This document shows positions 785 through 35,757 of a DNA stretch of 64,000 nt, one piece after another. Source of the DNA: an uncultured virus (IMG/VR IMGVR_UViG_3300027704_000010) (Duplodnaviria; Heunggongvirae; Uroviricota; Caudoviricetes); IMG/VR virus record IMGVR_UViG_3300027704_000010. One strand, written 5' to 3'. Each line of letters starts with the position of its first letter. The stretch's first letter is position 1. The notes under the pieces are model-generated. The model was not told the origin of the DNA and searched no databases. It saw only the letters and a program-made list of their open reading frames with translations. The position numbers and the translations under genes are program-made.

Positions 785-1459
785 CTATTTGTAACCTATT
801 TGCATGTAGCGACTATATGCTGGAGTTACCATACTGCCCACGTACTTGGTATTGCTTAATGGGTATTTGCTTATCATATCCTCTATGCTGTTGCTGGTAT
901 TAATATGTCCATCAAAGGATTCGCTGTTATTAGTTTGCATTATAATTAATTGATCCGAGTCAACAGTATCAAACCAATCGCTATTCATATGTTCACAACT
1001 GGTATTAATAATCCAATCGGGTTTAACCGTAATTAATTCCCCTCCAGTTTCAAACTCACAGTTACTTAAATCTAAATGTGTAGCATCAGCAACAACTCCT
1101 TTGTAACGCCAGCCTGCTAGATACTTTTGGTTCAGTCGTTCACTTAAATCTTGTGCAGTGGGATCAGCATCAACTCCGTATATACGTTCTATAGTTAATG
1201 CTCTGTGCAGTGGATCAACTAGACTGCCTATCCAACTGCCTAATATAATCACAGTGGCATTAGCTTTTAATGGAGATACTTTATACAGTTCGCCTAACAG
1301 CCAGCTCTTGGATGCTAACTGTCCTTTGCTGAATGCATGTTTAGGATACAAACTGCTGTGTTGTACTATATGCTCGAACTGGCTCATGCTTACTTTCAAG
1401 AAGCCTGCATCGATATAATCGTTAACCGCTTCCCATGTGTCTAGTTTAATTTCATTCAT
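785..1459 (-). CDS. class I SAM-dependent methyltransferase-like protein
   Basis: Motif-I-like VIILGSWIG, acidic end of strand 2 (IYGVDAD), and DWIINTSCEHM. Start placed at MNEIKL (1459) by ATGA overlap with the upstream ORF. Confidence 0.6.
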   Translation of the reverse strand: MNEIKLDTWEAVNDYIDAGFLKVSMSQFEHIVQHSSLYPKHAFSKGQLASKSWLLGELYKVSPLKANATVIILGSWIGSLVDPLHRALTIERIYGVDADPTAQDLSERLNQKYLAGWRYKGVVADATHLDLSNCEFETGGELITVKPDWIINTSCEHMNSDWFDTVDSDQLIIMQTNNSESFDGHINTSNSIEDMISKYPLSNTKYVGSMVTPAYSRYMQIGYK

Positions 1460-1605
1460 TTTATTCTCTCTAACATTTCTAATACTGTGCATAGTTCAGC
1501 AACTGAGCTGTCTAACACCATGTGAGCAACTTCGTTATCGTTCTTGGCTCTCTCCTCACATAACATATCTATTCTTACTCTGAGGTACTTTTCAATTTTA
1601 TCCAT
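1456..1605 (-). CDS. small hypothetical protein (49 aa)
   Basis: MDKIEKYLRVRIDMLCEERAKNDNEVAHMVLDSSVAELCTVLEMLERIK*. Fills the gap, has upstream GAGG, and its stop overlaps the next ATG. Confidence 0.55.
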   Translation of the reverse strand: MDKIEKYLRVRIDMLCEERAKNDNEVAHMVLDSSVAELCTVLEMLERIK

Positions 1606-1781
1606 TCCTCTATCCTCTCTAGTACTGCGTTCTTTTCTTCATCTGTGGCTGTGTACCAGTCACGCATCTCAGTAGCAGTTCTGTAACAGCCGATGCAGTA
1701 CTCACTGTTCACATCAAACGTACATATTTTAATACAGGGTGATGGTACCATACTGCGTGGTCTAGCTTTACCTCTTCTCAT
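1575..1781 (-). CDS. DUF1289 family small Cys-rich (putative Fe-S) protein
   Basis: Signature PSPCIKIC...CIGCYRTATE..DW. Confidence 0.8.
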   Translation of the reverse strand: MRRGKARPRSMVPSPCIKICTFDVNSEYCIGCYRTATEMRDWYTATDEEKNAVLERIEEWIKLKSTSE

Positions 1782-4700
1782 ACTGTGCCTCTAACCATTC
1801 GTAATCATTAATTAATTCTAATGCAACTGTGTTCCCCCGGTTGCGTCCTGCATAGTCATTACCTGCGTTTGCTCCTGCTACAGCTTGATCACTGTAGTCT
1901 CCCTCAGTAGCGTTTAGCCATGCCCCTAATCTTTGTTGTGCGTCTGCGTCTGTGCTAGTTGCTAACTTAACGCACTCTCTGAATGCACTACGCCATGTGC
2001 TGTATGCATCAGTATTAAATCTTGTTGTACAAGCAACTTCAGGCATTACTTTAAATCGTTTGCCTAATCCAGTTGTAAAGTCTATGCCCCAAGTGGTTGC
2101 TCCTCTAACTGCGTTAGTGTTAAACAGTTTAACTCCGCCGTAGCCATAAGTATCACCAGTAACAGGGTTAGCACTATTCCACACATGAGTAACGTCTTGG
2201 TCATATACATCTGGTATATAACTAAAGTCGAAGTCTGTGCTTACATCAGCATCACCGTCCACTACCCAGAACATACTACTGCTCACTGAATTACTTGCTT
2301 GTTGGTGTGCTGTGAATATTCCGTCTACATCACTAACCAGTATAGACTCGTCTGGTAATGCCTCTAGCAGTTCATGTGCGTTGTTTTGTGCGTAAGTGAT
2401 GAGTACTATGTCATATGGCTTATACACACTAGCAGTTGCTTTAACATACTGTAGTGTTCCACGTGGCATTTTGTTTAACTGTATGTCATCTGATGTTAAA
2501 CCTTCTATACCTTTGTGCCATAAACGTATGCCACCATATGAATGTGTTTTGTTTGTGCGTGGATTAACTCGTTGCCATGTGTGTACTTTGTTTAATCCAT
2601 CTAGTTGTGGAGTATAACTGTACTCGAATTCAGGTATTGGTGTTACATCTGGATCAATAGTATAGAAGTAATCACCTGTAGTAACATTTTTATAGTTGTT
2701 TAACTGCTTGAGTAACGGTGTTTCAGTGTTAAGAGCGAAACATTCCCACGTTGTAGGTGTAGTTGCTACCCGGTATACTGGCTTTAAGTCTTTAAAACTG
2801 TTGTTAATTAACTGTTTAACAGTGAACTTGGTGTTGGTAAAGGTACCAGTGGGTACTAAACGAACGCCACGTTGGGCATCTATGCTGTCAATCCACACGT
2901 GAACCACATGCTCTTCCCACTTAGTAGGCACATAATCAAACTTCCAATCGCTTACTAAGGTGCTATGAGGATCAACTACCCAGTACATGTTGCTGTCTAA
3001 GTTCATTTCAAACAATAACAGTTGGTCTATTATGTCTTTATCACTGTTCAAGTAGCATATAGGATACTCTTTTTGCTCACCTGCTACAGCATTTAATATT
3101 AATTGGTCTGGTATACTGCAAGTTAATACTTGTTCATCAGTTAATTGACTAGCATTATACGTTGTGGGCCACAGTCTAAGACCGCCATGTCCTATAACTA
3201 ACCCTTCTGCGTCTGTTCTTTTCCATACATGCACTACATTTGTATTGTTTACATGTGGTATAATGCTCTCTGCAATAACAGTTTCGGTTAATTCAATGTC
3301 TGGATCTACTGTCCACACATAGCCTACGTCACTATGCTTGGCTAATACGTCCTGTATTTCCTTTGATGTCATGTGTTCTAACTGTTCAACGGGCCATATA
3401 GGATCTCTACTTGCTACCTTAGGCAGTTCTTTTAGTTTAACATAACTGTTTTCTTTAATTTGTTCTAGTGTGTAGTGGGCTACCGGCATTAGTTTAACGC
3501 CACTTTGCTTACTGCTACCTGCATGTTGCCACATGTGGACTACATCTTTATCATATTGTGTTGGGTAATAACTATAATCGAAGTCTGCATCTACTTGTAC
3601 ATGTGCATCAACTACCCACATCATGCTTACGGTTGTTTGTAGTGCCAGAGCTTCGTAGACGCCGTCTAACGGCTGTAACAGTTCTTCCGGCTGTATGTGG
3701 TACACTGGATACTTTTTCTGTGTACAAGCCGGCTCTCTAATATACTTTGGTCTACCTTTGCCTTCGTTCTTGTTCCTTAAACTAACTCCACCGTAATCGT
3801 ATTGCTTACCTGTTACAGGATTTAGTTTTTGCCATACATGTTGCTTACCATCGTCGAACACATCAGGCTGGAAGTCAAAGTCAAATCCTACAAGTACATC
3901 AACGTCTGGATCAACTACCCAGAACCAAGCATGAGTACTCTTTGCTAATCCTTCTTGATATGAACTGTATGTTTCAAACTCATACGTTAATGCTACAGGA
4001 CTCATGTCGTGTACTTTAACATCACCATTCCAATCCTTTGGCATCCATATAAGTATGCCATTGAATATATGTTTAGTGTTACGTTCGAATGTTGTTGGGC
4101 TCCACGGTATATGACTTATGTCATTAAAGGCTGTGGGCAGTATCCAACAGTCAGCATCTACTCGATCCATTCCTTCATCAGTGTATATGATCGGGTAGCT
4201 TCTACCTCCGACGGGGTTAGTGGCAATAAACTTGCTGTCCTCACTGCCAGATCTCGGAACAAGTTTAATACCTCCTGCTCTGTTGTCGCTGATATTTGTA
4301 ATTGCTTTGGGGTATTTGTGTTCCAGGTCATCCGGAAACTTGAATATGTGTATGTACTTTGTGTCATGCTGTTGTGGAACATAGTTGAACTCCTCGTTAA
4401 TTTGATGTTCGTTGTCTACTAACCAGAACATTTTAGTTCTGCTTTTCCTTGCAGGAGTATCATAGTCGCTGATATTATCTGCATAGAATATATCATAACG
4501 TACAGGACAAATATCTTCTTGATACTTATGCTTGGTTACGTCAAAGTGTTTATTCATTAATCGTACGCCACCACATCGGGTATCCCATGCGTCTGTGAAG
4601 TCTGCTGGGTAACGTTCTTCTAGGTGACTGGGTATTTTAAATACATGTATATAATCTAATTCGTGACTTGCTGGAACGTATAACAGTTTACCATTAAACT

Positions 4701-5652
4701 GAAACTCTCTATCCACAATCCAGAACCATTCTGTTTTACTACGCTCTGCATAGTCGCTGTATGTTTCTGCATTAAAGTCTTCGTTGTCTATATAGAACAC
4801 ATCATACGCTTCGTCCTCTACTGGACATGCAGGATGTATTTTAAGTTCCGCGTATGTCCAATTCATAGGCACTAGTCTAATGCCACCCATACCCAACGGA
4901 TACTTTTCTTTTAATTGGTATGGCATTTTAAAACTGTGTACAAAGTCTTTCTCAAACGGATTAGGAACCCAGTCAAGTGTTTTAGTATTAATAGTATGTT
5001 CTTTATCTATTAACCAAACATATTCGTTTGTGTGTATATCACGCTGACTGTAATCGTCTACATCGGTAACAAACATAAACGGTATGTCTAAGTCTGCATT
5101 TAAGAAGCCGTGGTATTTAATTTGTGCGTCTTTCCAATCACGTGGATATAATTTAATGCCACCTTCTTCTTTTGGATACTTATGTTCTAGTTGTCCCCTT
5201 AAATGAAAACTGTGTATGAAGTCTGGTTCAAAGTTCCCCGGTGCCCAATCGATGTTTTCAGTTATTTTATATTCAGGATCAACGCACCAAACATGTGTGC
5301 TACTAGAGTTATCAAAGTAGTCCCCCGGTGTCGTGCTTGTTAGTACGTTGAATGTTTTTGTACATGCTACTGCATTGTGATGGAATGTTTCTGGAAACCC
5401 AATTGGCTTTTTAACTTTTAATGTTACTCCGCCATAGTTCAATTGGTTCCACTTCCAAACATGTTCGTAATTTTTTGTATGCGAGTCTGGCTTAAAGTCA
5501 AATATACTATAGTCGGTAACAGTAATGTCTTCTTCGATGAACCAATACATTGATGTATTGCTAGAGATAGCAGACACGTTACTGACTTGTTGTGCAAAAG
5601 GTAACTGCTCTACTAGAGCATCGTTCTCTCCTACATAAAAAATATCATACAT
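1768..5652 (-). CDS. 1294-aa protein made of about 12 tandem glycosyltransferase(GT-A)-like repeats
   Basis: Recurring unit W[VI]VDx[DE]...F[DN][FY]xP...H[VI][WF]...GG[VI][RK]L. The last unit (MFWVVDGDA...NPVTGDTYGYGGVKLF...WRSAFRECVKL) is similar to the single-domain ORF at 30715-31710. Confidence 0.7.
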   Translation of the reverse strand: MYDIFYVGENDALVEQLPFAQQVSNVSAISSNTSMYWFIEEDITVTDYSIFDFKPDSHTKNYEHVWKWNQLNYGGVTLKVKKPIGFPETFHHNAVACTKTFNVLTSTTPGDYFDNSSSTHVWCVDPEYKITENIDWAPGNFEPDFIHSFHLRGQLEHKYPKEEGGIKLYPRDWKDAQIKYHGFLNADLDIPFMFVTDVDDYSQRDIHTNEYVWLIDKEHTINTKTLDWVPNPFEKDFVHSFKMPYQLKEKYPLGMGGIRLVPMNWTYAELKIHPACPVEDEAYDVFYIDNEDFNAETYSDYAERSKTEWFWIVDREFQFNGKLLYVPASHELDYIHVFKIPSHLEERYPADFTDAWDTRCGGVRLMNKHFDVTKHKYQEDICPVRYDIFYADNISDYDTPARKSRTKMFWLVDNEHQINEEFNYVPQQHDTKYIHIFKFPDDLEHKYPKAITNISDNRAGGIKLVPRSGSEDSKFIATNPVGGRSYPIIYTDEGMDRVDADCWILPTAFNDISHIPWSPTTFERNTKHIFNGILIWMPKDWNGDVKVHDMSPVALTYEFETYSSYQEGLAKSTHAWFWVVDPDVDVLVGFDFDFQPDVFDDGKQHVWQKLNPVTGKQYDYGGVSLRNKNEGKGRPKYIREPACTQKKYPVYHIQPEELLQPLDGVYEALALQTTVSMMWVVDAHVQVDADFDYSYYPTQYDKDVVHMWQHAGSSKQSGVKLMPVAHYTLEQIKENSYVKLKELPKVASRDPIWPVEQLEHMTSKEIQDVLAKHSDVGYVWTVDPDIELTETVIAESIIPHVNNTNVVHVWKRTDAEGLVIGHGGLRLWPTTYNASQLTDEQVLTCSIPDQLILNAVAGEQKEYPICYLNSDKDIIDQLLLFEMNLDSNMYWVVDPHSTLVSDWKFDYVPTKWEEHVVHVWIDSIDAQRGVRLVPTGTFTNTKFTVKQLINNSFKDLKPVYRVATTPTTWECFALNTETPLLKQLNNYKNVTTGDYFYTIDPDVTPIPEFEYSYTPQLDGLNKVHTWQRVNPRTNKTHSYGGIRLWHKGIEGLTSDDIQLNKMPRGTLQYVKATASVYKPYDIVLITYAQNNAHELLEALPDESILVSDVDGIFTAHQQASNSVSSSMFWVVDGDADVSTDFDFSYIPDVYDQDVTHVWNSANPVTGDTYGYGGVKLFNTNAVRGATTWGIDFTTGLGKRFKVMPEVACTTRFNTDAYSTWRSAFRECVKLATSTDADAQQRLGAWLNATEGDYSDQAVAGANAGNDYAGRNRGNTVALELINDYEWLEAQYEKR

Positions 5653-5980
5653 CTATTTTGTGTCCTACTACTGCGTTTATATATTTATTGATATGGTCTA
5701 GTCCGTTGTCTAGGTTTTCTAATTCACGGAACATTAATTGGTTAGCACTAAAGCAACAATCGTCTCGGTGATGTCTTGCACTAATCTTACACACATGACA
5801 GTTCCCTTTTAGTTTCCAGAACATCATTTCCTCTGGAGTTAACAGTGGATCATATAGCCATGGGTTGCGTGATACTTCGGTAGGCGATAGTTCGCTATAG
5901 TCGTGGTCCGCAAGTAGTTCTTTAACGTAACCGTTTATGCCTATTGCCTCTATTCGTTCTTTAACTTTTTCGTTAGTCAC
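5645..5980 (-). CDS. hypothetical protein with CxxC/HH/CC motif (possible metal binding)
   Basis: GNCHVCKISARHHRDDCC. GTG start at 5980 overlaps the end of the carbamoyltransferase gene. Confidence 0.55.
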   Translation of the reverse strand: MTNEKVKERIEAIGINGYVKELLADHDYSELSPTEVSRNPWLYDPLLTPEEMMFWKLKGNCHVCKISARHHRDDCCFSANQLMFRELENLDNGLDHINKYINAVVGHKIDV

Positions 5981-7517
5981 TTGTATGTACTCTGATGTTG
6001 TAATGGTTTGTAAAAGCAGTAGCATCTTCTTTAGTATTAACTATTGGCTGACCTTTAACATTGAGACTCGTATTGAGAACAATAGGACAACCTGATACTT
6101 TGTGCCATTCGGATAGTGCTTCATATAGTTCAGGGTGCTGTTTTCTATTAACAGTCTGAACCCTACTCGTTCCATCCCCATGTACGACAGCAGGTATTTC
6201 ATCTGGACGTTTGCATTTTGCTACAAACTGCATGTATGGACTTTCGTTTAAACCGCCCGGCAGTTCAAACCAATCTTGTACATGTTCTTCTAAAATGATA
6301 GGAGCAAACGGTCTAAACTTTTGTCTACGTTTAATTTCATTTACTCTATCCTTAATCTCTTCCCCTCTAGGATCAGCAAATAAACTTCTGTTCCCTAATG
6401 CTCTAGGACCAAACTCTGCTCTGCCATTGGCAACTCCAAAGATTTCCCCATTGTTTAAACTCTCGACAAACTTCCTTACGGGCCACTTGCCTTCTATTAC
6501 AGTTCCTAAGTAAGGAGTTTTCCATTCTACTTTCTTTAATGTATCTGCAAAATGTAAGAATGCCGCGGCACCTAAACTACTTCCAGCATCACCTGGGTTA
6601 GGCATTATGTGTACGTCATCGAATATATCAAACAGTTTACTATTAGCAACACAGTTTAATGCACAGCCACCCATGAACACTAAGTTCTTACTATGAGTGT
6701 ACTTGTAGGCTAACTCCGCGTATTCCATAATTCTTTCTTCACATACTAACTGAGCACTTGCGGCTAAGTCGTACTTAATTTGTTCGTTACCCGGAATGTT
6801 TAAATTGTTTATTAAGAAGTCGTCTGGTAAGCCTCTACTCATATCAATGGTGTGTAGACACTCTCCTCTATTCTCTTTAGTAATCTTTTCATGCTTAAAC
6901 AATTGCTTACGCATCTGTTTAGCGAATATCGGATTACCGTATGCCGCCATTCCCATTAGCACATATTCATCTTCCATAGGCTTCAGTCCTACTCTGGCTG
7001 TTACAGCACTATAGAATAAACCTAGACTACTTGGGAAGTTTGTTTCGTGTACCAATTCAAACTTGCCACCTCGTTCTTCATACCTGTATATGGTTGCAGT
7101 CTGCACTTCGCCTATTGCATCGATAGTCATTATAGCACACTCGTCGAAGTCACTAGTAAGTACTCCTGCGGCGGCATGACTTTGATGATGTAATGTATGC
7201 TGAACTGGAATACCGTCTAGCTGTGGATAAAATCTTTTAAGCCATTGCTCGGCAGTTGGTTCCGTGAACACAGCCTTAACTGCATCCATTCTCAGTTGTT
7301 TTAGTCTACGTTTAGACTTTAACTTACTATCCTCATGCATTACTATAACATCTGGCATGCCAAATGTCAATGCTTCTGCCATTAATTCTTTGTGTAAGAA
7401 AGGATCGTTCTTCTTTCTACTATAACGTTCGCTGTGACCAGCAAACATAATCTTGCCTTCGTCGACTACACAAACAGACGCATCATGGAACATACAACTT
7501 ATACCAAGTATTCTCAT
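5973..7517 (-). CDS. carbamoyltransferase (NodU/CmcH/TobZ family)
   Basis: N-terminal ILGIS..HDAS and ERYSRKK, HHQSHAA, MGGCALNCVAN, PNPGDAGSSLG, GRAEFGPRALGNRS, RPFAP, HGDGTSRVQTV, LNTSLN. Confidence 0.95.
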   Translation of the reverse strand: MRILGISCMFHDASVCVVDEGKIMFAGHSERYSRKKNDPFLHKELMAEALTFGMPDVIVMHEDSKLKSKRRLKQLRMDAVKAVFTEPTAEQWLKRFYPQLDGIPVQHTLHHQSHAAAGVLTSDFDECAIMTIDAIGEVQTATIYRYEERGGKFELVHETNFPSSLGLFYSAVTARVGLKPMEDEYVLMGMAAYGNPIFAKQMRKQLFKHEKITKENRGECLHTIDMSRGLPDDFLINNLNIPGNEQIKYDLAASAQLVCEERIMEYAELAYKYTHSKNLVFMGGCALNCVANSKLFDIFDDVHIMPNPGDAGSSLGAAAFLHFADTLKKVEWKTPYLGTVIEGKWPVRKFVESLNNGEIFGVANGRAEFGPRALGNRSLFADPRGEEIKDRVNEIKRRQKFRPFAPIILEEHVQDWFELPGGLNESPYMQFVAKCKRPDEIPAVVHGDGTSRVQTVNRKQHPELYEALSEWHKVSGCPIVLNTSLNVKGQPIVNTKEDATAFTNHYNIRVHTSD

Positions 7518-7735
7518 CTATAAATAAATGGATCTGCTTTACGGATTTGTTCTAACTTATCCTTCAGCATCTCTTCTTCCTCATCAGTAAGATTTAATTC
7601 GGGTACATCGGGTACTTCAATTTCTGTAGGGCCTCTAAGTACTTCAGCTTTCTTACTTATTGGATTACCCTGCAAGTCACCGTGGTCGATAATCTCTGTT
7701 ACCTCTTCGGCTAGTTCGTTTCTTTCTTCTGGCAT
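7514..7735 (-). CDS. small acidic hypothetical protein ending ...IRKADPFIYR
   Basis: 73-aa ORF overlapping both neighbours (ATGA overlap with the carbamoyltransferase). Confidence 0.7.
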   Translation of the reverse strand: MPEERNELAEEVTEIIDHGDLQGNPISKKAEVLRGPTEIEVPDVPELNLTDEEEEMLKDKLEQIRKADPFIYR

Positions 7736-8451
7736 TATAATTCCTCTATAAACTTTTTAACTTCATTTGCATATAGCGTGTGTAAATGCTTATCTGCGTG
7801 GTACCATTCTGAGAAGTGTGAAGCGTTTTCTTCTGTGTCGTACCTTTCTATAAAACTGTCTTCACTCTCAAAGAACACATCATGCGGGAACGTATGCATT
7901 AAATGTTTTAATCTTAAATGATCAAACGTCTCTGCTTTTATTGACGCACAATTATTTACCTGTATGTGATCAACTTCGTAAGATTTTAAGAACGAATCTA
8001 GCATAGTCATATAAGTTATTTTTTTAAACAGTCCAAAGTTATAGTCTGTGTGATATAACTGCAATGCTTTGAACCATGTAGTGAAGTCGCCAGTGTTTTT
8101 GTATTGTTCTGCATCAGATCCGTTTGCCCAATGTATATGTTGATCTTCCCATGTAAACTCTACTCGTTCGTTAGTAGTCCATCCTACACATACAAGTAAC
8201 TCCTTTGGATCTCTTCCTTGATATACCCACTGACTAACATAGTCAATAGTGGATCGCATGATGTATTCATTACTGCCACCCGGTGCTGAATGATTTGTGT
8301 AGTTAAGTTCAAACGCTCTAGCAAGTTGTCCGGGCCATGCATGGACAATATTTTGTTTAGTAGCCGCAGTTGTTCCTGGGCCACATATCTCACTACCTGC
8401 CATATGGCTACAACCGATTGCGTATAAGTGTGTTTTGTCTTTTAAATCCAT
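7735..8451 (-). CDS. SGNH/GDSL-hydrolase-like protein
   Basis: Block I GCSHMAG, WP, N.S.PGGSN, VGWT..ER, and a C-terminal His region (WYHAD..H). Confidence 0.6.
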   Translation of the reverse strand: MDLKDKTHLYAIGCSHMAGSEICGPGTTAATKQNIVHAWPGQLARAFELNYTNHSAPGGSNEYIMRSTIDYVSQWVYQGRDPKELLVCVGWTTNERVEFTWEDQHIHWANGSDAEQYKNTGDFTTWFKALQLYHTDYNFGLFKKITYMTMLDSFLKSYEVDHIQVNNCASIKAETFDHLRLKHLMHTFPHDVFFESEDSFIERYDTEENASHFSEWYHADKHLHTLYANEVKKFIEEL

Positions 8452-26891: not shown

Positions 26892-26897
26892 TATTTA
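26892..26897 (-). promoter_or_regulatory. late-type promoter core TAAATA, 5 nt before ATG
   Basis: GGTAAATA-GTAGT-ATG (26886); no SD. Confidence 0.6.
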
Positions 26898-26908
26898 CCT
26901 GCTTTTTT

Positions 26909-28009: not shown

Positions 28010-28046
28010 AATCCTCTCCTGTTGTTTACTTCATATAGAAGTGTTC

Positions 28047-28054
28047 TATTTATA
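28047..28054 (-). promoter_or_regulatory. T4-type late promoter consensus TATAAATA upstream of metK
   Basis: Exact TATAAATA in the intergenic gap, about 37 nt before the metK ATG. Confidence 0.65.
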
Positions 28055-28078
28055 TTATAACATGAATTGCTTAATAAA

Positions 28079-28402: not shown

Positions 28403-28430
28403 ATTATCCTCCTTTTGGATATTAAGTTTT

Positions 28431-30065
28431 TCATAGCAATGCTTCTGCCTCTTCACATTGTTGCCAAAATTGATGCATCTCTGGAAATGTTGCTAAGAAA
28501 TTTGTGTCTCTTCTTGCGTCATGTTCGCTAAAGAATTTAAAAAAGTCTGCTCTGTCTCTTCTTAACTTATCACTATCGATGTCTTGTTTCATTATATCTA
28601 AGTTACGTTTTGCTTTAGCAATTTCAAAATCTTTAAAACCTCTGTAGTCTACATAGTCTTCAGTTGCTTTGTTATCTTCCATAAATTGAATTGCTTCCTG
28701 CATGTAGTCACAATACTCGCTAGGTAGTACATGTATACTTTGCCATGCTGGTGCTCTAAGCAATGGAATGTCAAACCATATACGTTGCTCCGGAACTTCC
28801 CAACCCATTGCAAACTGGTTCTCTTTACTCCACTTATCTCTAAGGTCTAATATTCCTTGTAGGAATTCTGTAAAACTTGTAACACTTAAACAGTTAAACG
28901 TGTTAATAAAATTAATACTAGTAAATCTAGTTTCGTCTAAAAACCTATGACAGTTATTCCACACAGTATCAAATACCATACCATTACGCATATACTCTGC
29001 TTGTTCGCCCCAACCATCTAAACTACAAAACACACTAAAGTTATGATATGCTTTGTCGTTGTATTCGTAAATATATGTGAAACTATTGTTATCCTGTTCT
29101 TCGCATTGTCCAACTTGCATAAACGTTTGCGGTATCTCTTCTCGTTCTATTACTGCTAAGTTGCTGTCGTGATAACGTTTTGCATCAGCGCCAATTATAG
29201 CATGATCCCATGTTTGCCAATCTGTGCCGTCTAGTGGATCTGCTACATATACTTCTGCACCATGTTGTACATTATCTAATCTCTTAACTGAATCTAAAAA
29301 CTTTACAAACAATGCATCGTTGGCAGGACACATGTTTGTTGTTATACTTAATTCTAAATCTTTATTTGGATTTGCTAATACATAATCTAATACTTTAAAA
29401 GTATTCTTATCCATTAATGGCTCACCACCAGTCATACGAAACACACGAAGTGTTTTATACATCTCGGGCCACCACTTCCAAAACGCTGTAACGTATGGAT
29501 TAAGATCCTGTTTTACTTTTAATGGCATTAAGTTTTTTAGTGCAAGACTGTCAATATTATTATGTGGAGCAGTAGTTGGATATTCCCCAAACTCGTCTAT
29601 CTCTTCTTGCCATGCTGTACTTAAATGTGGAGAACAATAACTGCACTTGAAGTTACATGCTTGATTAAAGTTTACTTCTACATAACGTGGATTGATGTTG
29701 CCACTAGCACCAGCATCTAAAATATCTTCTTTACTTTCTTGTGCCCAATACTCGCCACTGCGATATACTCGGTCACTTCTTGCACCCGTATCTTCTATGT
29801 CCCAACAATAACTACAGCCATCTGGTCTCTCGCCTTTAAGCATTTGTCTGCGTTGTTCTTTCTTTTCTTTTGTGTTATGTAGTGCTGTTGGATTATCTTT
29901 TAACTCATCTAACGGAATTGAATGTGTAGGCGGATGATAGCAACTGTGTGTTTGACCATTTGTTAAGTGCATAGATACCTGAGACCATTTAGCATAACAC
30001 ATGCTAGGACTAATATTATCTAGTTGCTCTTTAGCCTTATCAGCGGCTTGGTCGTATATGCTCAT
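28431..30065 (-). CDS. radical SAM protein, CxAKW...SCYHP subtype (rSAM-8)
   Basis: CNFKCSYC and MTGGEP. N-terminal MCYAKW...THSCYHPP...CSYCW; about 70-aa internal insertion relative to rSAM-7. Confidence 0.92.
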   Translation of the reverse strand: MSIYDQAADKAKEQLDNISPSMCYAKWSQVSMHLTNGQTHSCYHPPTHSIPLDELKDNPTALHNTKEKKEQRRQMLKGERPDGCSYCWDIEDTGARSDRVYRSGEYWAQESKEDILDAGASGNINPRYVEVNFNQACNFKCSYCSPHLSTAWQEEIDEFGEYPTTAPHNNIDSLALKNLMPLKVKQDLNPYVTAFWKWWPEMYKTLRVFRMTGGEPLMDKNTFKVLDYVLANPNKDLELSITTNMCPANDALFVKFLDSVKRLDNVQHGAEVYVADPLDGTDWQTWDHAIIGADAKRYHDSNLAVIEREEIPQTFMQVGQCEEQDNNSFTYIYEYNDKAYHNFSVFCSLDGWGEQAEYMRNGMVFDTVWNNCHRFLDETRFTSINFINTFNCLSVTSFTEFLQGILDLRDKWSKENQFAMGWEVPEQRIWFDIPLLRAPAWQSIHVLPSEYCDYMQEAIQFMEDNKATEDYVDYRGFKDFEIAKAKRNLDIMKQDIDSDKLRRDRADFFKFFSEHDARRDTNFLATFPEMHQFWQQCEEAEALL

Positions 30066-30709
30066 ACGGTAATTCCGTGCGTTTTGAAGAACGATTTCAT
30101 GAGATGGCTGATTAATGTTACTTCACCATTCATAGTTTCGTATTCGGAGTCATCCAGATCTCCATTGATAATTCTAGCAGTTGCCTCAGCCCAGAGCTCT
30201 GGTGCCTGGTCCATGCCGCCAGGACATATTCCGTATGCGTTGTTGTTAGGCTCGATTGCAATACATTTCATTAGTTGTTGCTCTGCCGATCTAAGATACC
30301 TGTATGAAAGGTTCTCGAAGCCATACTCTCTTCTACCCAAAGTAACAGAACTAGTGATAAAAATAAATTGTTTACAATGACTTAAGATATCATATATAGC
30401 TAATTTGCCATACATTGTTTGTTGTAGGTTGTCGTCATTTTCCTTTTTAAAAGTTTCAACATGATCTAAGTAATATGTGTCGGCAACATTCCTACGCTTA
30501 TATTTTGGTGTAGCACCACCAACAACTCTCTGATTAAATACTACAACATCTGGATCAGGGTATTTACTAAACTCTGTTTCCATCTGTGCCGGGTCAGTAT
30601 AGTCGAGAGTATCTCTACCTAATTTAATAACGTTGTGTCCGGAACCCGTTAGATAGCCAGCAATTGACAAAGGATATTGTGTTGTGGATCCTATTAAGTA
30701 TATAACCAT
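30062..30709 (-). CDS. degenerate SDR/Rossmann-like protein
   Basis: IYLIGS, D.VVFNQ, FIFITSS, Y...RS and GICPGG follow SDR topology but lack the canonical Lys. Confidence 0.45.
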   Translation of the reverse strand: MVIYLIGSTTQYPLSIAGYLTGSGHNVIKLGRDTLDYTDPAQMETEFSKYPDPDVVVFNQRVVGGATPKYKRRNVADTYYLDHVETFKKENDDNLQQTMYGKLAIYDILSHCKQFIFITSSVTLGRREYGFENLSYRYLRSAEQQLMKCIAIEPNNNAYGICPGGMDQAPELWAEATARIINGDLDDSEYETMNGEVTLISHLMKSFFKTHGITV

Positions 30710-30714
30710 GTTAG

Positions 30715-31710
30715 TTACAGCAATCCTTTTTCTAAAAGTTCTTGTATTTGTTTTTCTCTAACCATTGCACCCCAACGTTTAGGATTAACAAAAGTCTTCT
30801 TAAAGAATTTACACATGTTAGGATTTGGATCGAACAACATCATATCATTAATTTCTTCGTTTAATGTTACACCGATATCCTTGATTGCTATCTCTAACAT
30901 CTCAGGATCATGTGATACTTTAGTGTAAGGGCAAACGACATTGCCTGGGAAACGTGGTAGCACTTGGTTACTAAAGAAATCACTAAACCAGTCATAGTCT
31001 GATATTAAATTAGTATCCCATTCAGTTAATACAGTCATTTGGCATCCAAGCCTTGCTCCGTATATAGCCCACATGCCGTTGTCAATATCACTTCCAATGT
31101 TACACCATGTTTGTAATCTGTTATAGTTCTGCCACCATATCTTATCTTTAAATTCATCTGGCTTTACACGAACACCTTGGTCGGTACTCATTTTAACGCC
31201 TTCTCTAAAGCCTGCTCTGAAGGCTTGAAACGGACTTGCTGTTTGATGTACTTCACTGAATGTGTCGTTAAGTTGTATGTAATCTAGCTTCCAACAAAAC
31301 TCCATACCCTCACCATCTTGTGCGGACTCATGAGTGTTAATTGTTTTAGTATATTCTGTGGGCCAACATTTAAGTCCACCATTACCGTACACTAAACCGT
31401 TTAGAATGTTTTTAGCATTCCAACTAAAAATACATTTACTGATATCATTACCATCATGATCTGTCTCAGGAACATCTAATACTTGTTCGAAGAAATCATC
31501 CATAACAATATTGTCACCGTCTACTGTGATAAATCGTTCTGTTTCTGATTGGTTAGCACATGCCTTGTGAGCGGCATCGAATCCTGTAACTCCGTGTACT
31601 CGTTTAGCCCATGGGACCTTGTTTAACAAGTCTGCCCAATGTTCTTCTGCATTTGGCTCGTCATAGCTGATGTAAAAGATATCTAATTCTGTTACGTCTA
31701 TTTTCGCCAT
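30715..31710 (-). CDS. glycosyltransferase(GT-A)-like protein
   Basis: DIFYISYDEP, GFDAAHKACA, ITVDGDN (DxD), NGLVYGNGGLK and AFRAGFREGVKM. Confidence 0.65.
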   Translation of the reverse strand: MAKIDVTELDIFYISYDEPNAEEHWADLLNKVPWAKRVHGVTGFDAAHKACANQSETERFITVDGDNIVMDDFFEQVLDVPETDHDGNDISKCIFSWNAKNILNGLVYGNGGLKCWPTEYTKTINTHESAQDGEGMEFCWKLDYIQLNDTFSEVHQTASPFQAFRAGFREGVKMSTDQGVRVKPDEFKDKIWWQNYNRLQTWCNIGSDIDNGMWAIYGARLGCQMTVLTEWDTNLISDYDWFSDFFSNQVLPRFPGNVVCPYTKVSHDPEMLEIAIKDIGVTLNEEINDMMLFDPNPNMCKFFKKTFVNPKRWGAMVREKQIQELLEKGLL

Positions 31711-32362: not shown

Positions 32363-33226
32363 CTATTGGAGATAGTCGCTTTCTAGCTGTGCAACCATAT
32401 CCTTTGTTAGCCATTCCTTTGAAACATAATGAAACGGGTGTGTTATTTGGAAATTGCCTATCTTAAAATCTTTGTAAGACTTATAATATGTAGGCAATGT
32501 TTCAGTCCAATCGGTGTGTACTAAACTTGTTGGAATATTTTGTACTTCGCTTTTCATGTGTATAAACGTAGGTAGTTCTGTCATGTGGTCTGCTGTACAC
32601 TTATCTTTTATTCCTAAGATATGCATAGCAAGGCTGAATGCCACATCTGCACTTAGCCAGTCTGGTTTTCCTTTTGGCATATACTTAAAGTACATACGTT
32701 CCCAATTATGGAATATAATCTCTACCATCTTGAAAAACTCTGTTGCAAGGTCTGACTTTTTAAAATAAAAGAATGCTGTATAAACATTTGGCATATCATT
32801 TAGTTTTAAGGACTGCCTGTAGTGTGTATCGTATACATGTTCGTCTCTATATGTTTTTACATTAGTACAAGACCATATATCCTTTTGTGCTAAAATATCC
32901 CACCACTGACTTACATCTGTAGGGAACAACATATCAGTGTCTAGTATTACTGTCTCATCATACGGAGTCATGTAATAGTATTTCCACTTGTTATTAATTT
33001 TCCATTCTTTATCTTCAGCATCATCTTCCCAAGGTATATCCACAATGTGATCAAATACTTTTTTGTGTTTTGCTGTAATAAGTTTTTTAGTCCTAGCGTC
33101 AATACACACCGTAAGATTGTTTACAATGCCCTGTGTTAGCTTTAAGTTCATTGCGAGTGCATACGCCTGCTCTAGATAATCTACAGTGCCGTTGTTTTGT
33201 GCTATTACAATGTAACCCTTACTCAT
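32363..33226 (-). CDS. GT-A (GT8/mannosyltransferase-like) glycosyltransferase
   Basis: KGYIVIAQNN..DY, TPYDETVILDTD (DxD), ADVAFSLA and FHY. Paralog of 34509-35405. Confidence 0.7.
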   Translation of the reverse strand: MSKGYIVIAQNNGTVDYLEQAYALAMNLKLTQGIVNNLTVCIDARTKKLITAKHKKVFDHIVDIPWEDDAEDKEWKINNKWKYYYMTPYDETVILDTDMLFPTDVSQWWDILAQKDIWSCTNVKTYRDEHVYDTHYRQSLKLNDMPNVYTAFFYFKKSDLATEFFKMVEIIFHNWERMYFKYMPKGKPDWLSADVAFSLAMHILGIKDKCTADHMTELPTFIHMKSEVQNIPTSLVHTDWTETLPTYYKSYKDFKIGNFQITHPFHYVSKEWLTKDMVAQLESDYLQ

Positions 33227-33905
33227 TTTCTAATAATCTCTGTGTGTCTTTCCAGTTTGTAACTGCGAACACTTGTTCTGGTTGTAGTTGTACTGCTAGA
33301 GGATAATCATTTCCTGCAGGGTCAACTCTGTCGCCATAAAATTTAATTGAGTCTATGTCGAAGTCTTTTAATATTTGAGACTTATCACATCCCTTTTTAA
33401 ATATATCTATACCTGTCTCACCGCCAACTTTTGCACTTAGCTCTGGGAAACGTGTATTAAATCTTTCAGCAATAGCAGTTCTTTCTTGCACTATTAAATC
33501 GTATTGATAGTAGTGTTCTCTTTGTTGTTTGTTTGCATGTCTACCCACAACACTAAAGTTAACCATGCCGGTTCTCTCTTCTATGTGTAAGCCTGTTTGT
33601 GTTTGCCATTTGCTGTTATCTAATTCGTTTACTAGAAAGAAGCCTGATTCAGCTGGCAACTTCCAATCATTATGACTAAGTTGCTCGTCTTTAGCATACA
33701 CATCATTACCACTACAGTTATAAACTCTCATACATGCGTTGTAAACATCATCGCCAATTTGTTCTATTGTCTTTGGTCGGTCACTGCCTGTTACTAAAAT
33801 TACACTATGGGTTTTAGCAAACTCTAAAAACTGTTGTTTAAACTCAGCGTCTATTGTTCCTCTACTAGGAGTTAGTGTGCCATCTACATCAAAGATATAA
33901 TTCAT
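33219..33905 (-). CDS. HAD-family phosphomannomutase (eukaryotic PMM-like)
   Basis: FDVDGTLTPSR, VTGSD, ERTGMVNFS.VGR, VGGETGIDIF..G.DK and FYGD....GNDY. Start at MNYIF. Confidence 0.88.
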   Translation of the reverse strand: MNYIFDVDGTLTPSRGTIDAEFKQQFLEFAKTHSVILVTGSDRPKTIEQIGDDVYNACMRVYNCSGNDVYAKDEQLSHNDWKLPAESGFFLVNELDNSKWQTQTGLHIEERTGMVNFSVVGRHANKQQREHYYQYDLIVQERTAIAERFNTRFPELSAKVGGETGIDIFKKGCDKSQILKDFDIDSIKFYGDRVDPAGNDYPLAVQLQPEQVFAVTNWKDTQRLLENE

Positions 33906-33912
33906 GTGTGTG

Positions 33913-33999
33913 TTACTTCTTTTTTCTTTTATTGAACTGTTTATTAGCATTACGTTGCCAACTCCATTCGAAGAATTTACTAATTGCGTTGCTTATCAT
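33913..33999 (-). CDS. micro-ORF (28 aa, basic C-terminus)
   Basis: MISNAISKFFEWSWQRNANKQFNKRKKK* fills the gap. Confidence 0.4.
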   Translation of the reverse strand: MISNAISKFFEWSWQRNANKQFNKRKKK

Positions 34000-34009
34000 T
34001 CGTTGTAAT

Positions 34010-34237
34010 TCAAACATCTTTCTTCCACGTTGAGGGATCGCCCCAACTAATTAAATCGTTTATAGCAGACTGGCATCCGTGAATGTAATCTCTATCTTCT
34101 TCGCTTAGTACTGACCAAGCGTAGGTAACTTTGTCTATCATCGCTGTTACTTCTTCTGGATGATCCAGGTGATAGTTGCTTTCCATACATGCTTGAATCT
34201 CATCCATTCGCTTGTCTAGTTTTTCTCGTAACTTCAC
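34010..34237 (-). CDS. hypothetical protein
   Basis: KLREKLDKRMDE...WSVLSEEDRDYI. GTGA overlap with the upstream ORF. Confidence 0.7.
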   Translation of the reverse strand: MKLREKLDKRMDEIQACMESNYHLDHPEEVTAMIDKVTYAWSVLSEEDRDYIHGCQSAINDLISWGDPSTWKKDV

Positions 34238-34401
34238 TTTACTGGTTTCCAATCTTCTTTAAATAAACAAAATCTAGTTTGCCCATCCTTTGTTTCGTAC
34301 ACAAACTGTGTTGCTAATAGTTGTACAACTTTGCCCGTGTTAGTTCTATTAAACCCAGACTCGTGATGCACTATAACATCTTTAAGATTTGGCTTTTTCA
34401 T
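34234..34401 (-). CDS. small hypothetical protein (55 aa)
   Basis: MKKPNLKDVIVHHESGFNR...QFVYETKDGQTRFCLFKEDWKPVK*. Upstream GAGG. Confidence 0.6.
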   Translation of the reverse strand: MKKPNLKDVIVHHESGFNRTNTGKVVQLLATQFVYETKDGQTRFCLFKEDWKPVK

Positions 34402-34519
34402 CTTGTTCCTCTTCTCGTAAGTCTTCGCCTTCCTTACCTCTAGTGCGATTACCGTCCGAATTTAATTCTGTTAAATCTTGTTGCTTGTTTTTTTGATTGT
34501 GTTCTTCTTCACATGACAT
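34382..34519 (-). CDS. small hydrophilic peptide (45 aa)
   Basis: MSCEEEHNQKNKQQDLTELNSDGNRTRGKEGEDLREEEQDEKAKS*. Upstream AAGGAG. Confidence 0.55.
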   Translation of the reverse strand: MSCEEEHNQKNKQQDLTELNSDGNRTRGKEGEDLREEEQDEKAKS

Positions 34520-35405
34520 GGCTTAGTAACTCCTTACTTACTCTATTTATCGCCCACTTGTTCATAACATGTATATCTACGCCACGCCATCTACATAACA
34601 TAAAGTCGCCTAGACTTTTTGGCTTCTCTAAGTAGAATATTAATTCATTTTTCTCTGGAGAGGAATGTACATCGTCGGTATCAAATGTTTTATAAAGTGC
34701 AGGCACCGGAAGTTGTGGAACTCCTTTCTCTACAAATCCGGATAGCATGTGTGCGGCTACACTAAAACTGTAATCATTACGATATAAGCCACCGGGCCAT
34801 CTATACAGTTCTTGGTAGTATTGAGTGTTGTCTCGTACATGTCGTACGGTATTAAAAAACTGTTGTGCATAGTTAGACTTTTTAAAGTAAACTACTGTAG
34901 CCCAATACATAGTGATGCCAACAGGACTCAAACGTTTAAGTGAATCGTCATTACGTTCTGACATAATGTCTTCGTAGTTCCAGTTCATCATTAATTCGTT
35001 GTCGTGTCCCCAACACTGATTTAATACATCACTCATAACTAAGTAGTCTGCATCTATTAGTATTGTTTCATCATATGGACTTAGGTCGTAAGCATCACAT
35101 CTATCTATGTTATAAAACGGAAGTGATGTACTTTTGTGGCTCGTATCTTTGTATGAGCGTCTGTTAATGTTCTTGAATGCTTTGTCTTTAGTTGTTATAA
35201 CAATATTTGATATAGCATTGTGTATGAAATCGTAACCCATTTCATCTAAGTTATAATCATAACTGTATTGGTTTGTAACAACTGTGATATTATCTATACC
35301 TAAGTTTTCTTTGATATAGTATGCATTTATAGTTGCTAACTTTAGATAATCTATTTCCTCATTGTTATGAGCAAATATTAATATGCCTTTACTTGGAGTT
35401 GTCAT
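34509..35405 (-). CDS. GT-A (GT8/mannosyltransferase-like) glycosyltransferase
   Basis: KGILIFAHNN..IDY, YDLSPYDETILIDAD, RNDYSFSVA and DIHVMNK. Confidence 0.7.
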   Translation of the reverse strand: MTTPSKGILIFAHNNEEIDYLKLATINAYYIKENLGIDNITVVTNQYSYDYNLDEMGYDFIHNAISNIVITTKDKAFKNINRRSYKDTSHKSTSLPFYNIDRCDAYDLSPYDETILIDADYLVMSDVLNQCWGHDNELMMNWNYEDIMSERNDDSLKRLSPVGITMYWATVVYFKKSNYAQQFFNTVRHVRDNTQYYQELYRWPGGLYRNDYSFSVAAHMLSGFVEKGVPQLPVPALYKTFDTDDVHSSPEKNELIFYLEKPKSLGDFMLCRWRGVDIHVMNKWAINRVSKELLSHVM

Positions 35406-35757
35406 CAAGTTCCATATCCACCAGCTTATGAACTTTTCTGCTTTTCTTTATTTTGGAATATTCGTAATGATATTCGTTGGTAGCTTCAAAGTACCTTGAT
35501 AGAATCTCTTCTAAGAAATCATCTAGCCCGACAATTTCAATTGGATTGTTATACACATCTAACAGTACTGCTTTAGTGTGCCCTTGTGTTATTAATGTCT
35601 GTACAAACGATATAAGCATTTGAGAAATCTCAAACGTACCACCGTTAGTACTGTAACTTAATAGTGTTTGCACTTTAGATCGAAGTGCGTTGTGTTGTAC
35701 GTTTAGAGTTAATCTATAGTTCGCGAACTCTAATGCTTTGGTTAATTTAGAAGTCAT
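35389..35757 (-). CDS. hypothetical protein
   Basis: 122-aa ORF; first gene after the terminator, preceded by GATAAATA-N5. Confidence 0.75.
   Translation of the reverse strand: MTSKLTKALEFANYRLTLNVQHNALRSKVQTLLSYSTNGGTFEISQMLISFVQTLITQGHTKAVLLDVYNNPIEIVGLDDFLEEILSRYFEATNEYHYEYSKIKKSRKVHKLVDMELDDNSK

What the first reader, a model, noticed from the sequence alone, without database searches (positions are those of the whole stretch)
785..35757. About 35-kb phage biosynthetic island with eight radical SAM enzymes, attached to the virion genes
Seen: a tightly overlapping, co-oriented run of 8 rSAM enzymes, MetK, a carbamoyltransferase, six or more GT-like proteins, PMM, a nucleotide-sugar dehydrogenase, 2OG oxygenase, PLP enzyme, two SDR-like proteins, an SGNH-like protein, a methyltransferase-like protein, a desaturase and SCP2. 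It starts immediately after the tail/baseplate genes and carries the same TAAATA late elements. Known: these families build and tailor sugars in natural-product and surface-glycan pathways (TobZ/NodU carbamoylation; the Twitch rSAM BtrN oxidises an aminocyclitol). Inference: a complete, late-expressed, self-supplied pathway making a heavily modified glycan or glycolipid, most simply to decorate the virion. Alternatives are host-envelope remodelling or DNA hypermodification.
Basis: partly seen in the sequence, partly recalled or inferred. Interest (0 to 1): 0.92.

Follow-up and report, generated by a model that had tools for sequence, protein, structure and literature searches.

The report
Phage sugar-tailoring island, eight radical-SAM genes
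An uncultured marine giant phage carries, right behind its tail genes, about 35 kb of sugar-transferring and sugar-editing genes, including eight copies of an untested iron-sulfur enzyme family; it probably makes an unusual sugar decoration whose chemistry and target are unknown.

Summary
Window 785-35757 is one co-oriented minus-strand block of 32 ORFs of 80 aa or more, directly downstream of tail and baseplate genes.

- All eight radical SAM proteins belong to one catalogued but functionally unassigned subfamily, NCBIfam NF033640 N_Twi_rSAM (294-363 bits, cutoff 170).
- MetK, carbamoyltransferase, NDP-sugar dehydrogenase, PMM, 2OG oxygenase, desaturase-like, SDR and SCP2 proteins are confirmed.
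- Six glycosyltransferase-like domains were invisible to Pfam but are supported by fold or profile.
- The PLP call is modest. The SGNH, second SDR and methyltransferase calls are weak.
- A conserved G-A-TAAATA element is shared with the structural genes.
- The island is syntenic in a 50-87% identical relative, and 24 of 25 related contigs carry N_Twi_rSAM genes.
- In bacteria the family is rare (2 of 401 genomes) and lies in glycan loci.

Best reading: a glycan-building and radical-tailoring cassette co-regulated with the virion genes. The acceptor is unproven. "Complete, self-supplied" is overstated, because no sugar nucleotidyltransferase was found.

Similar regions were noted in pelagimyophages (PMC7029224). 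This scan also found such islands before on other DNA: 73 notes in at least 68 genomes.

The parts
785..1492 (-). 235-aa protein, methyltransferase-like (unverified); last gene of the island
   Evidence: Pfam Methyltransf_25 at E 0.2. Profile against PDB gives thermospermine synthase at E 0.45. Homologues directly follow GT-A genes in L071 and L076-L080.
1575..1781 (-). 68-aa Cys-rich DUF1289 protein
   Evidence: Pfam DUF1289 at E 8e-18, 64 bits. Homologues in 3 related loci.
1768..5652 (-). 1294-aa protein: C-terminal GT-A domain (aa 1080-1293) preceded by at least 6 partial repeats of the DxD-to-YGG segment
   Evidence: HMM of the 30715-31710 family: E 1e-36 for aa 1080-1293, and weaker repeats at 23-79, 400-433, 570-629, 662-709, 770-842 and 990-1047. 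59% identical orthologue in G002.
5973..7517 (-). NodU/TobZ-type carbamoyltransferase
   Evidence: Carbam_trans_N E 1e-41, Carbam_trans_C E 8e-56. phrog_1601 E 5e-102.
7514..7735 (-). 73-aa acidic small ORF just upstream of the carbamoyltransferase
   Evidence: conserved at 48-50% identity in G002 and L090.
7735..8451 (-). DUF6071 protein, SGNH-like (weak)
   Evidence: Pfam DUF6071 at E 3.6e-10. No PDB match.
8452..15826 (-). Five N_Twi_rSAM genes (8452-9822, 9746-10975, 11133-12533, 13221-14465, 14462-15826) with an embedded membrane FA-desaturase-like gene (12482-13258) and a 63-aa ORF (10979-11170)
   Evidence: NF033640 at 309-363 bits. Alignment A1. FA_desaturase at E 5e-14 with 3 TM-like segments. 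Small ORF.
15813..16700 (-). PLP-dependent-enzyme-like protein
   Evidence: Aminotran_1_2 at E 1.9e-5, 24.5 bits against cutoff 19.7. SLGKTFPIIG.R.G is conserved in the G002 orthologue.
16697..17485 (-). 2OG-Fe(II) oxygenase
   Evidence: 2OG-FeII_Oxy_3 at E 2.5e-12.
17485..18777 (-). Nucleotide-sugar dehydrogenase
   Evidence: UDPG_MGDP_dh at E 1e-17. TIGR03026 at E 9e-41. Present in 6 of 8 surveyed relatives.
18837..22212 (-). Two paralogous GT-B-fold glycosyltransferase-like proteins (18837-20168, 20971-22212) flanking a 269-aa unknown
   Evidence: AF2 model pLDDT 77.5. Every Foldseek row listed is a GT-B enzyme. VIA Z 10-11.4. The two paralogues are 28% identical.
22215..26291 (-). Two N_Twi_rSAM genes (22215-23633, 24615-26291) flanking a 330-aa unknown
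   Evidence: NF033640 at 294 and 319 bits. The unknown has no hit.
26284..28456 (-). Short SDR (26284-26886), MetK (26909-28009), SCP2 (28079-28456)
   Evidence: MetK is absent from G002.
28431..30065 (-). Eighth N_Twi_rSAM gene, with an insertion
   Evidence: NF033640 at 327 bits in two stretches. 37.5% identical to 24615-26291.
30062..30709 (-). 215-aa Rossmann/SDR-like protein (weak)
   Evidence: RmlD_sub_bind at E 0.13. GDP-fucose synthase at E 0.025.
30715..31710 (-). GT-A-fold glycosyltransferase-like protein, the most conserved gene of the island
   Evidence: AF2 pLDDT 84.8. Foldseek: SunS at E 8.5e-5, also PBCV-1 A64R, Mimivirus R699 and ppGalNAcT. 73 related loci.
32363..35408 (-). 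Two GT8-like GT-A paralogues (32363-33226, 34509-35408) with PMM (33219-33950) and small conserved ORFs (34010-34252, 34234-34401) between them
   Evidence: Profile A2 against glycogenin at E 1.2e-5 with invariant D96 and D98. PMM at E 1e-22. The 55-aa ORF is conserved in 27 loci.
35389..35757 (-). 122-aa conserved unknown, first gene after the promoter
   Evidence: Orthologues in 58 of 73 loci. No family or fold match.
35763..35806 (-). Terminator hairpin (35806-35779) followed by GATAAATA (TAAATA at 35763-35768)
   Evidence: 11-bp stem plus T-run, the only strong terminator in 785-40000. Hairpin conserved in 33 of 46 relatives and TAAATA in 41 of 46.
35821..39716 (-). Flanking virion genes: Ser/Thr-rich 348-aa protein (35821-36867), tail fibre protein (36902-39067), 211-aa phrog_11259 protein (39081-39716)
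   Evidence: PHROG tail fibre at E 6e-23. S+T is 28% against a window median of 12%.

Best explanation
The island is a phage-encoded cassette that assembles a glycan and then edits it chemically.

Proposed roles:
- PMM and a nucleotide-sugar dehydrogenase adjust host-derived sugar precursors.
- Six soluble glycosyltransferase-like domains (GT-A, GT8-like, GT-B) build the chain.
- A carbamoyltransferase, a 2OG oxygenase, SDR(s), a PLP-type enzyme, an SGNH-like protein and eight old, diverged N-terminal-twitch radical SAM enzymes tailor the sugars. The radical SAM enzymes would abstract a hydrogen atom, and the outcome (epimerisation, oxidation, deoxygenation, decarboxylation or C-C bond formation) is unknown.
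- MetK, where present, replaces the SAM that each radical turnover consumes.

The island is transcribed from G-A-TAAATA elements of the same kind as those in front of the neighbouring virion genes, so it is probably made together with the tail. The most likely acceptor is a virion protein encoded next to it (the Ser/Thr-rich 348-aa protein or the fibres).

Shown: gene content, folds, family membership, synteny, the conserved motif and terminator, and carbohydrate contexts of the family.
Inferred: sugar substrates for the radical SAM enzymes, late timing, and the acceptor.
For: - 8 of 8 radical SAM ORFs are NF033640 members with intact Cys motifs. Each has a 63-87% identical orthologue in G002, while the paralogues are only 21-37% identical to one another.
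- GT folds and profiles.
- In 8 diverse relatives, the same position holds radical SAM genes (22 ORFs) together with NDP-sugar dehydrogenase (6 of 8 loci), NeuB (4 of 8), RmlC, a GDP-mannose-dehydratase-type epimerase, methyltransferases and a sulfotransferase.
- In bacteria the family lies in an O-antigen-type locus with RmlC, RmlD, Wzm, Wzt, a TylF-type O-methyltransferase and a WbsX GT. One copy is fused to Wzt, read through without a stop. In a second genome it lies beside a GT2 and a GDP-mannose-dehydratase-type gene.
- TAAATA is found upstream of orthologues of 35389 (41 of 46), 35821 (38 of 48), 39081 (28 of 34) and 30715 (42 of 59), against 0-2 for internal genes and a 5.2% background.
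- The GT core and the adjacent structural genes co-occur in 54-60 of 73 loci.
- Near-identical contigs from RNA libraries of two studies cover both structural and island genes.
Against: - No glycan, acceptor or reaction has been observed.
- No sugar nucleotidyltransferase is found in 0 of 5 related records, so the pathway is not autonomous.
- SPASM/twitch radical SAM enzymes often act on peptides. SkfB is among the best solved matches.
- A membrane desaturase-like protein and SCP2 hint at a lipid moiety.
- The Wzt fusion is a single cluster (1 of 87 hits), and only 2 bacterial contexts were seen.
- Peripheral O-antigen GTs also lack TM segments (recalled), so solubility does not exclude a host-envelope target. 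The published reading of similar regions is host O-chain modification (PMC7029224, passages read).
- RNA-library contigs show neither timing nor strand and may derive from DNA.
- Ser/Thr richness is common in fibre proteins.
Confidence: 0.5

Rival explanations
1. Host-envelope remodelling. The phage GTs and tailoring enzymes act at the cytoplasmic face on the host's own O-antigen, LPS or capsule intermediates. The host's export machinery then displays the altered glycan, which blocks superinfection or stops progeny from sticking to debris.
For: - This is the published reading of the GT- and radical-SAM-bearing 'host recognition cluster' of pelagimyophages, where GT8 is the commonest GT family (PMC7029224, passages read).
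- Bacterial N_Twi_rSAM genes sit in an O-antigen-type locus.
- A membrane desaturase-like protein and SCP2 are present.
Against: - The island has no flippase, polymerase, ABC transporter, Gtr-type or initiating phosphoglycosyl transferase by Pfam. Only one protein has TM-like segments.
- The shared promoter motif and fixed position behind the fibre genes tie it to virion genes, and late expression would be poor timing for exclusion.
Confidence: 0.22
2. Protein or peptide modification. The eight twitch radical SAM enzymes modify amino-acid residues (cross-links, epimerisation, oxidation) of a virion protein or a small phage peptide, and the GTs act separately.
For: - SPASM/twitch enzymes are typical peptide maturases. 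Weak hits go to SkfB, PapB, YhhB and WgkB, and the 2OG enzyme weakly hits YhhC.
- Conserved small ORFs of 55-73 aa lie in the island.
- Giant and Ser/Thr-rich virion proteins are encoded next door.
Against: - No PqqD-like recognition element and no known precursor family were found.
- All peptide-maturase hits are far below their cutoffs.
- The family's neighbours in phages and bacteria are carbohydrate enzymes.
Confidence: 0.1
3. Small-molecule or glycolipid product. The island makes a free aminoglycoside-, nucleoside- or glycolipid-like compound that acts on the host or on competitors.
For: - The enzyme mix (carbamoyltransferase, PLP, SDR, radical SAM, GTs) resembles antibiotic clusters.
- The best solved match of the radical SAM profile is BlsE of blasticidin S biosynthesis (E 6e-8).
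- SCP2 and a desaturase-like protein are present.
- A cyanophage paper read three such genes as 'antibiotic synthesis genes' (PMC12801897, passages read).
Against: - No scaffold-forming enzyme (such as a DOI synthase or DegT-type aminotransferase) appears by Pfam.
- There is no exporter.
- The island is coupled to virion genes.
Confidence: 0.1
4. DNA hypermodification. The GTs and tailoring enzymes decorate phage DNA bases.
For: - GT-B structural matches include T4 beta-glucosyltransferase (Z 10.3) and the phage HY126 GT (Z 10.8). HY126 phage DNA carries arabinosylated 5-hydroxycytosine (PMC13326640, passages read).
- A 2OG oxygenase and a carbamoyltransferase are present.
Against: - No thymidylate-synthase-family hydroxymethylase in 0 of 5 related records, including a 91%-complete one.
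- The 2OG enzyme is of the P4H-like 2OG-FeII_Oxy_3 type.
- The GT-B matches are generic across the fold.
- The island sits with virion genes, not replication genes, and shares their motif.
Confidence: 0.04

Closest known systems
NCBIfam NF033640, N_Twi_rSAM (twitch domain-containing radical SAM protein)
   Same: All eight proteins score 294-363 bits against a cutoff of 170. They have the N-terminal 4-Cys domain before the CxxxCxxC core.
   Different: The family has no assigned reaction. Here eight diverged paralogues sit in one phage island. The family is large: 7,241 clusters at 50% identity with E<=1e-30.
Host recognition cluster of marine T4-like pelagimyophages and cyanomyophages (Zaragoza-Solas et al. 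2020, PMC7029224; passages read)
   Same: A large variable region beside the tail fibre genes with many GTs (GT8 commonest), UDP-glucose dehydrogenase and radical SAM gene cassettes.
   Different: This phage belongs to a lineage of about 340 kb whose baseplate resembles PA5oct, SCTP-2 and Atu_ph07. The paper did not identify the radical SAM family and proposed host O-chain modification.
Virus-encoded virion glycosylation (chlorovirus PBCV-1 A64R, Mimivirus R699, mycobacteriophage capsid and tail glycans)
   Same: Soluble virus-encoded GTs. The 30715-31710 model matches A64R and R699 structurally.
   Different: Those systems, as I recall them, have no radical SAM enzymes. No glycan has been shown on this virion. 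The mycobacteriophage work (Freeman 2023) was seen only as a citation.
Twitch radical SAM sugar enzymes BtrN and BlsE
   Same: A radical SAM core with one auxiliary cluster domain acting on sugar-like substrates. BlsE is the best solved match (E 5.6e-8).
   Different: The match covers only the core (profile positions 209-359). The twitch domain is C-terminal in those enzymes (recalled) and N-terminal here. BtrN was not among the 10 matches at E<=0.01.
ABC-transporter-dependent O-antigen loci with chain-end modification (Wzm/Wzt)
   Same: In one bacterial genome, four N_Twi_rSAM genes lie between Wzm/Wzt and sugar methyltransferases, and one is fused to Wzt.
   Different: The phage island has no transporter. 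The fusion is a single cluster (1 of 87).

Membership tests
NF033640 N_Twi_rSAM | Score above the curated cutoff (170 bits) | tested here: met
   8 of 8 proteins, 294-363 bits.
NF033640 N_Twi_rSAM | Auxiliary 4-Cys (twitch/SPASM-like) domain N-terminal to a CxxxCxxC radical SAM core | tested here: met
   Invariant C30, C49, C98, C101, then C159, C163, C166 and GGEP. Pfam places SPASM before Radical_SAM in 5 of 8.
NF033640 N_Twi_rSAM | A defined reaction or substrate | not testable with these tools
   No reaction is assigned in the model name. No paper was found.
GT-B glycosyltransferases (18837-20168, 20971-22212) | Two Rossmann-like domains | tested here: met
   Model pLDDT 77.5. Foldseek E 7e-5, with every row listed a GT-B enzyme. 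VIA Z 10-11.4 with about 290 residues aligned. Donor and acceptor are unknown.
GT-A glycosyltransferases (30715-31710; aa 1080-1293 of the 1294-aa ORF) | GT-A fold with a DxD-type motif | tested here: met
   Model pLDDT 84.8. Foldseek: SunS at E 8.5e-5, A64R and R699, with TM only 0.2-0.4. Invariant D66 in the DGD motif.
GT8 (32363-33226, 34509-35408) | Sequence membership in GT8 with DxD | tested here: inconclusive
   The profile matches glycogenin at E 1e-5, but only over positions 16-110. D96 and D98 are invariant. No Pfam Glyco_transf_8 hit.
Virion glycosylation systems | Glycan attached to a virion protein | not testable with these tools
   Needs purified virions.
Seroconversion / O-antigen modification modules (Gtr-type or Wzx/Wzy/ABC-dependent) | Membrane flippase, bactoprenol-linked GT, polymerase or transporter in the module | tested here: not met
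   No such Pfam family in the ORFs scanned. Among the proteins checked for TM-like segments, only the desaturase-like one has any.
Phage DNA glycosyl-hypermodification (hydroxymethyl-pyrimidine route) | Thymidylate-synthase-family dNMP hydroxymethylase | tested here: not met
   0 of 5 related records, against controls 10 of 14. Other routes were not tested.
RiPP radical SAM maturation systems | Precursor peptide plus a recognition element (PqqD-like) | tested here: inconclusive
   No PqqD-like domain. Small conserved ORFs exist but match no precursor family.
Aminoglycoside-type pathways (BtrN, TobZ) | Aminocyclitol-forming enzymes (DOI synthase, DegT-type aminotransferase) | tested here: not met
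   No such Pfam hits in the island. BtrN is not among the profile's PDB matches.
Pelagimyophage-type host recognition cluster | Variable region beside tail fibres with GTs, UDP-sugar dehydrogenase and radical SAM cassettes | tested here: met
   compared with passages of PMC7029224. Lineage membership was not tested.

The most novel reading that the evidence does not exclude
N-terminal-twitch radical SAM enzymes are a large, unrecognised class of glycan-editing radical enzymes. In these phages, a swappable set of them rewrites sugars of a glycan attached to tail or fibre proteins. This would give the virion a hypermodified sugar coat that tunes host recognition or shields the tail, and would be the first radical-SAM-dependent virion glycosylation system.
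Probability: 0.3. Interest if true: 0.85.

Novelty: new variant of a known kind. Interest (0 to 1): 0.6.

Why it matters
The family is very large (7,241 clusters at 50% identity with E<=1e-30), and no paper I found assigns it a reaction. It is concentrated in abundant marine and freshwater giant phages, at a fixed place beside the host-recognition genes. If these enzymes edit sugars, they add new radical carbohydrate chemistry and a new layer to phage-host recognition. They could also explain part of the bacterial O-antigen diversity seen where the same family occurs. The island gives a concrete test set: eight enzymes, six transferases and a candidate acceptor.

Tried and rejected
- Whole genome: none is held for this window.
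- megablast of 8000-30000 against cultured phages: no match.
- tblastn of one radical SAM protein found only 22-25% identical vibriophage genes in uninformative neighbourhoods.
- Pfam at E<=10 gave no GT for the unknown ORFs.
- Profile searches against solved structures gave nothing significant for the GT-B family, the 30715 family, 785-1492, 35389-35757, the SGNH-like, PLP-like and 23626-24618 families (E>0.2, noise), and only weak SDR hints for 30062-30709 (the PPR rows there are repeat artefacts).
- ESM Atlas returned only viral hypothetical clusters for the 1294-aa and 122-aa proteins.
- Genome-contig scan: the 8-paralogue alignment was too diverse. The orthologue alignment found one MAG contig of 14 kb, probably a binned phage fragment, and one weak hit.
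- The moraphage lineage (PMC12619734) was considered and not adopted: genomes up to 307 kb, Bacteroidota hosts, no mention of radical SAM.
- RNA-library contigs leave most of 28632-31287 and 20000-22655 uncovered. That proves nothing.
- Complex prediction was not used, because an enzyme-acceptor pair is a poor case for it.
- Literature searches for a description of the family or island found only Nishimura 2017 (12 radical SAM genes in one T4-like genome) and Zaragoza-Solas 2020.


Full report
**What is there.** The window is a fragment of an uncultured marine giant phage.
- All long ORFs are on the minus strand.
- At 35821-63867 lie virion genes: a baseplate hub protein, gp25-like and gp6-like wedge proteins, a 5532-aa virion protein, a tail fibre protein and a Ser/Thr-rich 348-aa protein.
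- The gp6-like protein is about 36% identical to those of PA5oct, SCTP-2 and Atu_ph07.
- Downstream, 35757 to 785 holds 32 ORFs of 80 aa or more, many overlapping, plus at least four conserved small ORFs.

**The radical SAM genes.**
- All eight score 294-363 bits on NCBIfam NF033640, 'twitch domain-containing radical SAM protein' (cutoff 170).
- They share four invariant N-terminal cysteines, then CxxxCxxC and GGEP, so the auxiliary-cluster domain precedes the core.
- They are old paralogues, 21-30% identical to one another with one pair at 37.5%. Each still has a 63-87% identical orthologue in the relative G002.
- The nearest solved structures are weak, core-only matches: BlsE at E 6e-8, then SkfB and MoaA.
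- A profile of the eight finds 7,241 clusters at 50% identity with E<=1e-30, including tandem-fused forms.

**The other enzymes.**
- Confirmed: MetK, NodU/TobZ-type carbamoyltransferase, nucleotide-sugar dehydrogenase, eukaryotic-type PMM, 2OG oxygenase, a membrane FA-desaturase-like protein, SCP2 and one SDR.
- No ORF hits a Pfam glycosyltransferase family even at E<=10, yet six GT-like domains are supported:
  - two GT-B paralogues, by an AlphaFold model and two structure searches;
  - a GT-A protein, and the homologous C-terminal domain of the 1294-aa ORF;
  - two GT8-like paralogues with an invariant DxD.
- The PLP call is modest. The SGNH-like, second SDR and methyltransferase-like calls are weak.

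**Regulation.**
- TAAATA is rarer than chance overall (67 sites against 107 expected), but it sits in 6 of 14 upstream gaps.
- In relatives below 97% identity it lies within 80 nt upstream of orthologues of 35389 (41 of 46), 35821 (38 of 48), 39081 (28 of 34) and 30715 (42 of 59). For three internal genes the counts are 0 of 50, 2 of 49 and 2 of 27. The background is 5.2%.
- The extended consensus is G-A-TAAATA. This is close to the T4 late promoter TATAAATA, which I quote from memory.
- The only strong terminator in 785-40000 is the hairpin at 35806-35779, between the last structural gene and the island. It is conserved in 33 of 46 relatives.
- Contigs of RNA libraries from two studies cover structural genes and several island genes at 0-2 differences. 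This does not show timing and may include DNA.

**Distribution.**
- The island is syntenic in G002, including all eight radical SAM genes and the link to the baseplate genes, but G002 lacks MetK.
- The 30715-31710 protein has relatives in 73 viral contigs.
- Within 10 kb of it, the GT core and flanking structural genes recur in 54-60 of the 73 loci, MetK in 10 and PMM in 12. Three of the 73 loci are near-identical to the window.
- 24 of 25 long related contigs carry N_Twi_rSAM matches, from 1 to 10 per contig, including a 339,794-bp record rated 91% complete.

**What the radical SAM enzymes act on.** The evidence here is association only.
- In 8 diverse relatives (61 ORFs; I left out 2 of the 10 loci listed) they are mixed with NDP-sugar dehydrogenase, NeuB, RmlC, an epimerase/dehydratase, methyltransferases and a sulfotransferase.
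- In cellular genomes the family is rare: 2 of 401 genomes of one phylum, and 0 of 14 controls.
- One of those contexts is an O-antigen-type locus in which one copy is fused to Wzt. That fusion is a single cluster among 87 hits.
- The other context sits beside a GT2 and a GDP-mannose-dehydratase-type gene.

**Limits.**
- No sugar nucleotidyltransferase and no thymidylate-synthase-type hydroxymethylase were found in 5 related records. So the pathway depends on host sugar activation, and the classical DNA-glycosylation route is unlikely.
- The acceptor is unknown. The adjacent 348-aa protein is the most Ser/Thr-rich in the window (28% against a 12% median; 23-29% in 49 orthologues), which is only suggestive.

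**Prior knowledge.**
- Zaragoza-Solas et al. 2020 (PMC7029224, passages read) described GT-rich regions with radical SAM cassettes beside pelagimyophage tail fibres and proposed host O-chain modification.
- Nishimura et al. 2017 (PMC5332604, passages read) counted 12 radical SAM genes in one T4-like genome.
- I found no paper naming the N_Twi_rSAM family in phages or giving it a reaction.
- This scan has noted such islands before on other DNA: 73 notes in at least 68 genomes.

**Verdict.** The feature is real and widespread. It is best read as a glycan-building and radical-tailoring cassette co-regulated with the tail genes. Its chemistry and target remain open.

Noticed in passing
window 39739-56337 (-): One ORF of 5532 aa, a virion structural / baseplate-wedge-like protein (phrog_10938 at E 8e-251) with a YHYH domain at aa 1360-1535.
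   Followed up: partly
window 1768-5652 (-): The 1294-aa protein looks like an array of partial copies of the DxD-to-YGG segment of a GT-A domain, ending in one complete GT-A domain. The Atlas finds only viral hypothetical clusters.
   Followed up: partly
window 35763-35768, 26892-26897, 61098-61103 (-): At several genes TAAATA starts only 11 nt before the start codon, with no Shine-Dalgarno sequence between. The median position is also -11 for orthologues of 35389 and 39081. These transcripts may be leaderless or have very short leaders.
   Followed up: no
window 1575-1781 (-): A 68-aa Cys-rich DUF1289 protein lies between the 1294-aa ORF and the last island gene. I recall this family as a putative small Fe-S protein, which could relate to the radical SAM enzymes.
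   Followed up: no
window 7514-7735 (-): A 73-aa acidic ORF abuts the carbamoyltransferase start and is conserved in G002 and L090. An earlier scan note describes a similar tiny partner on other DNA.
   Followed up: partly
window 34234-34401 (-): A 55-aa ORF with no family match is conserved at 52-65% identity (in the 12 hits printed) in 27 related loci.
   Followed up: no
window 61471-62121 (+): The only sizeable plus-strand gene with a family hit: an alpha/beta-hydrolase-like protein (Abhydrolase_6 at E 1.4e-5) inserted between baseplate genes.
   Followed up: no
L099 8582-11143 (-): A bacterial ORF of 854 aa fuses the Wzt ABC ATPase and its C-terminal domain to an N_Twi_rSAM enzyme inside an O-antigen-type locus. 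Only one cluster shows this fusion.
   Followed up: yes
protein database: Many family members are tandem fusions of two or three N_Twi_rSAM units (800-1400 aa). 4 of 87 hits are fused to class-I methyltransferase domains.
   Followed up: no
L090 (MAG contig, 14 kb): A contig binned in a Gammaproteobacteria MAG carries 3-4 N_Twi_rSAM genes at 72% identity plus the 1294-aa ORF homologue. It is probably a phage fragment and at most a weak host hint.
   Followed up: partly
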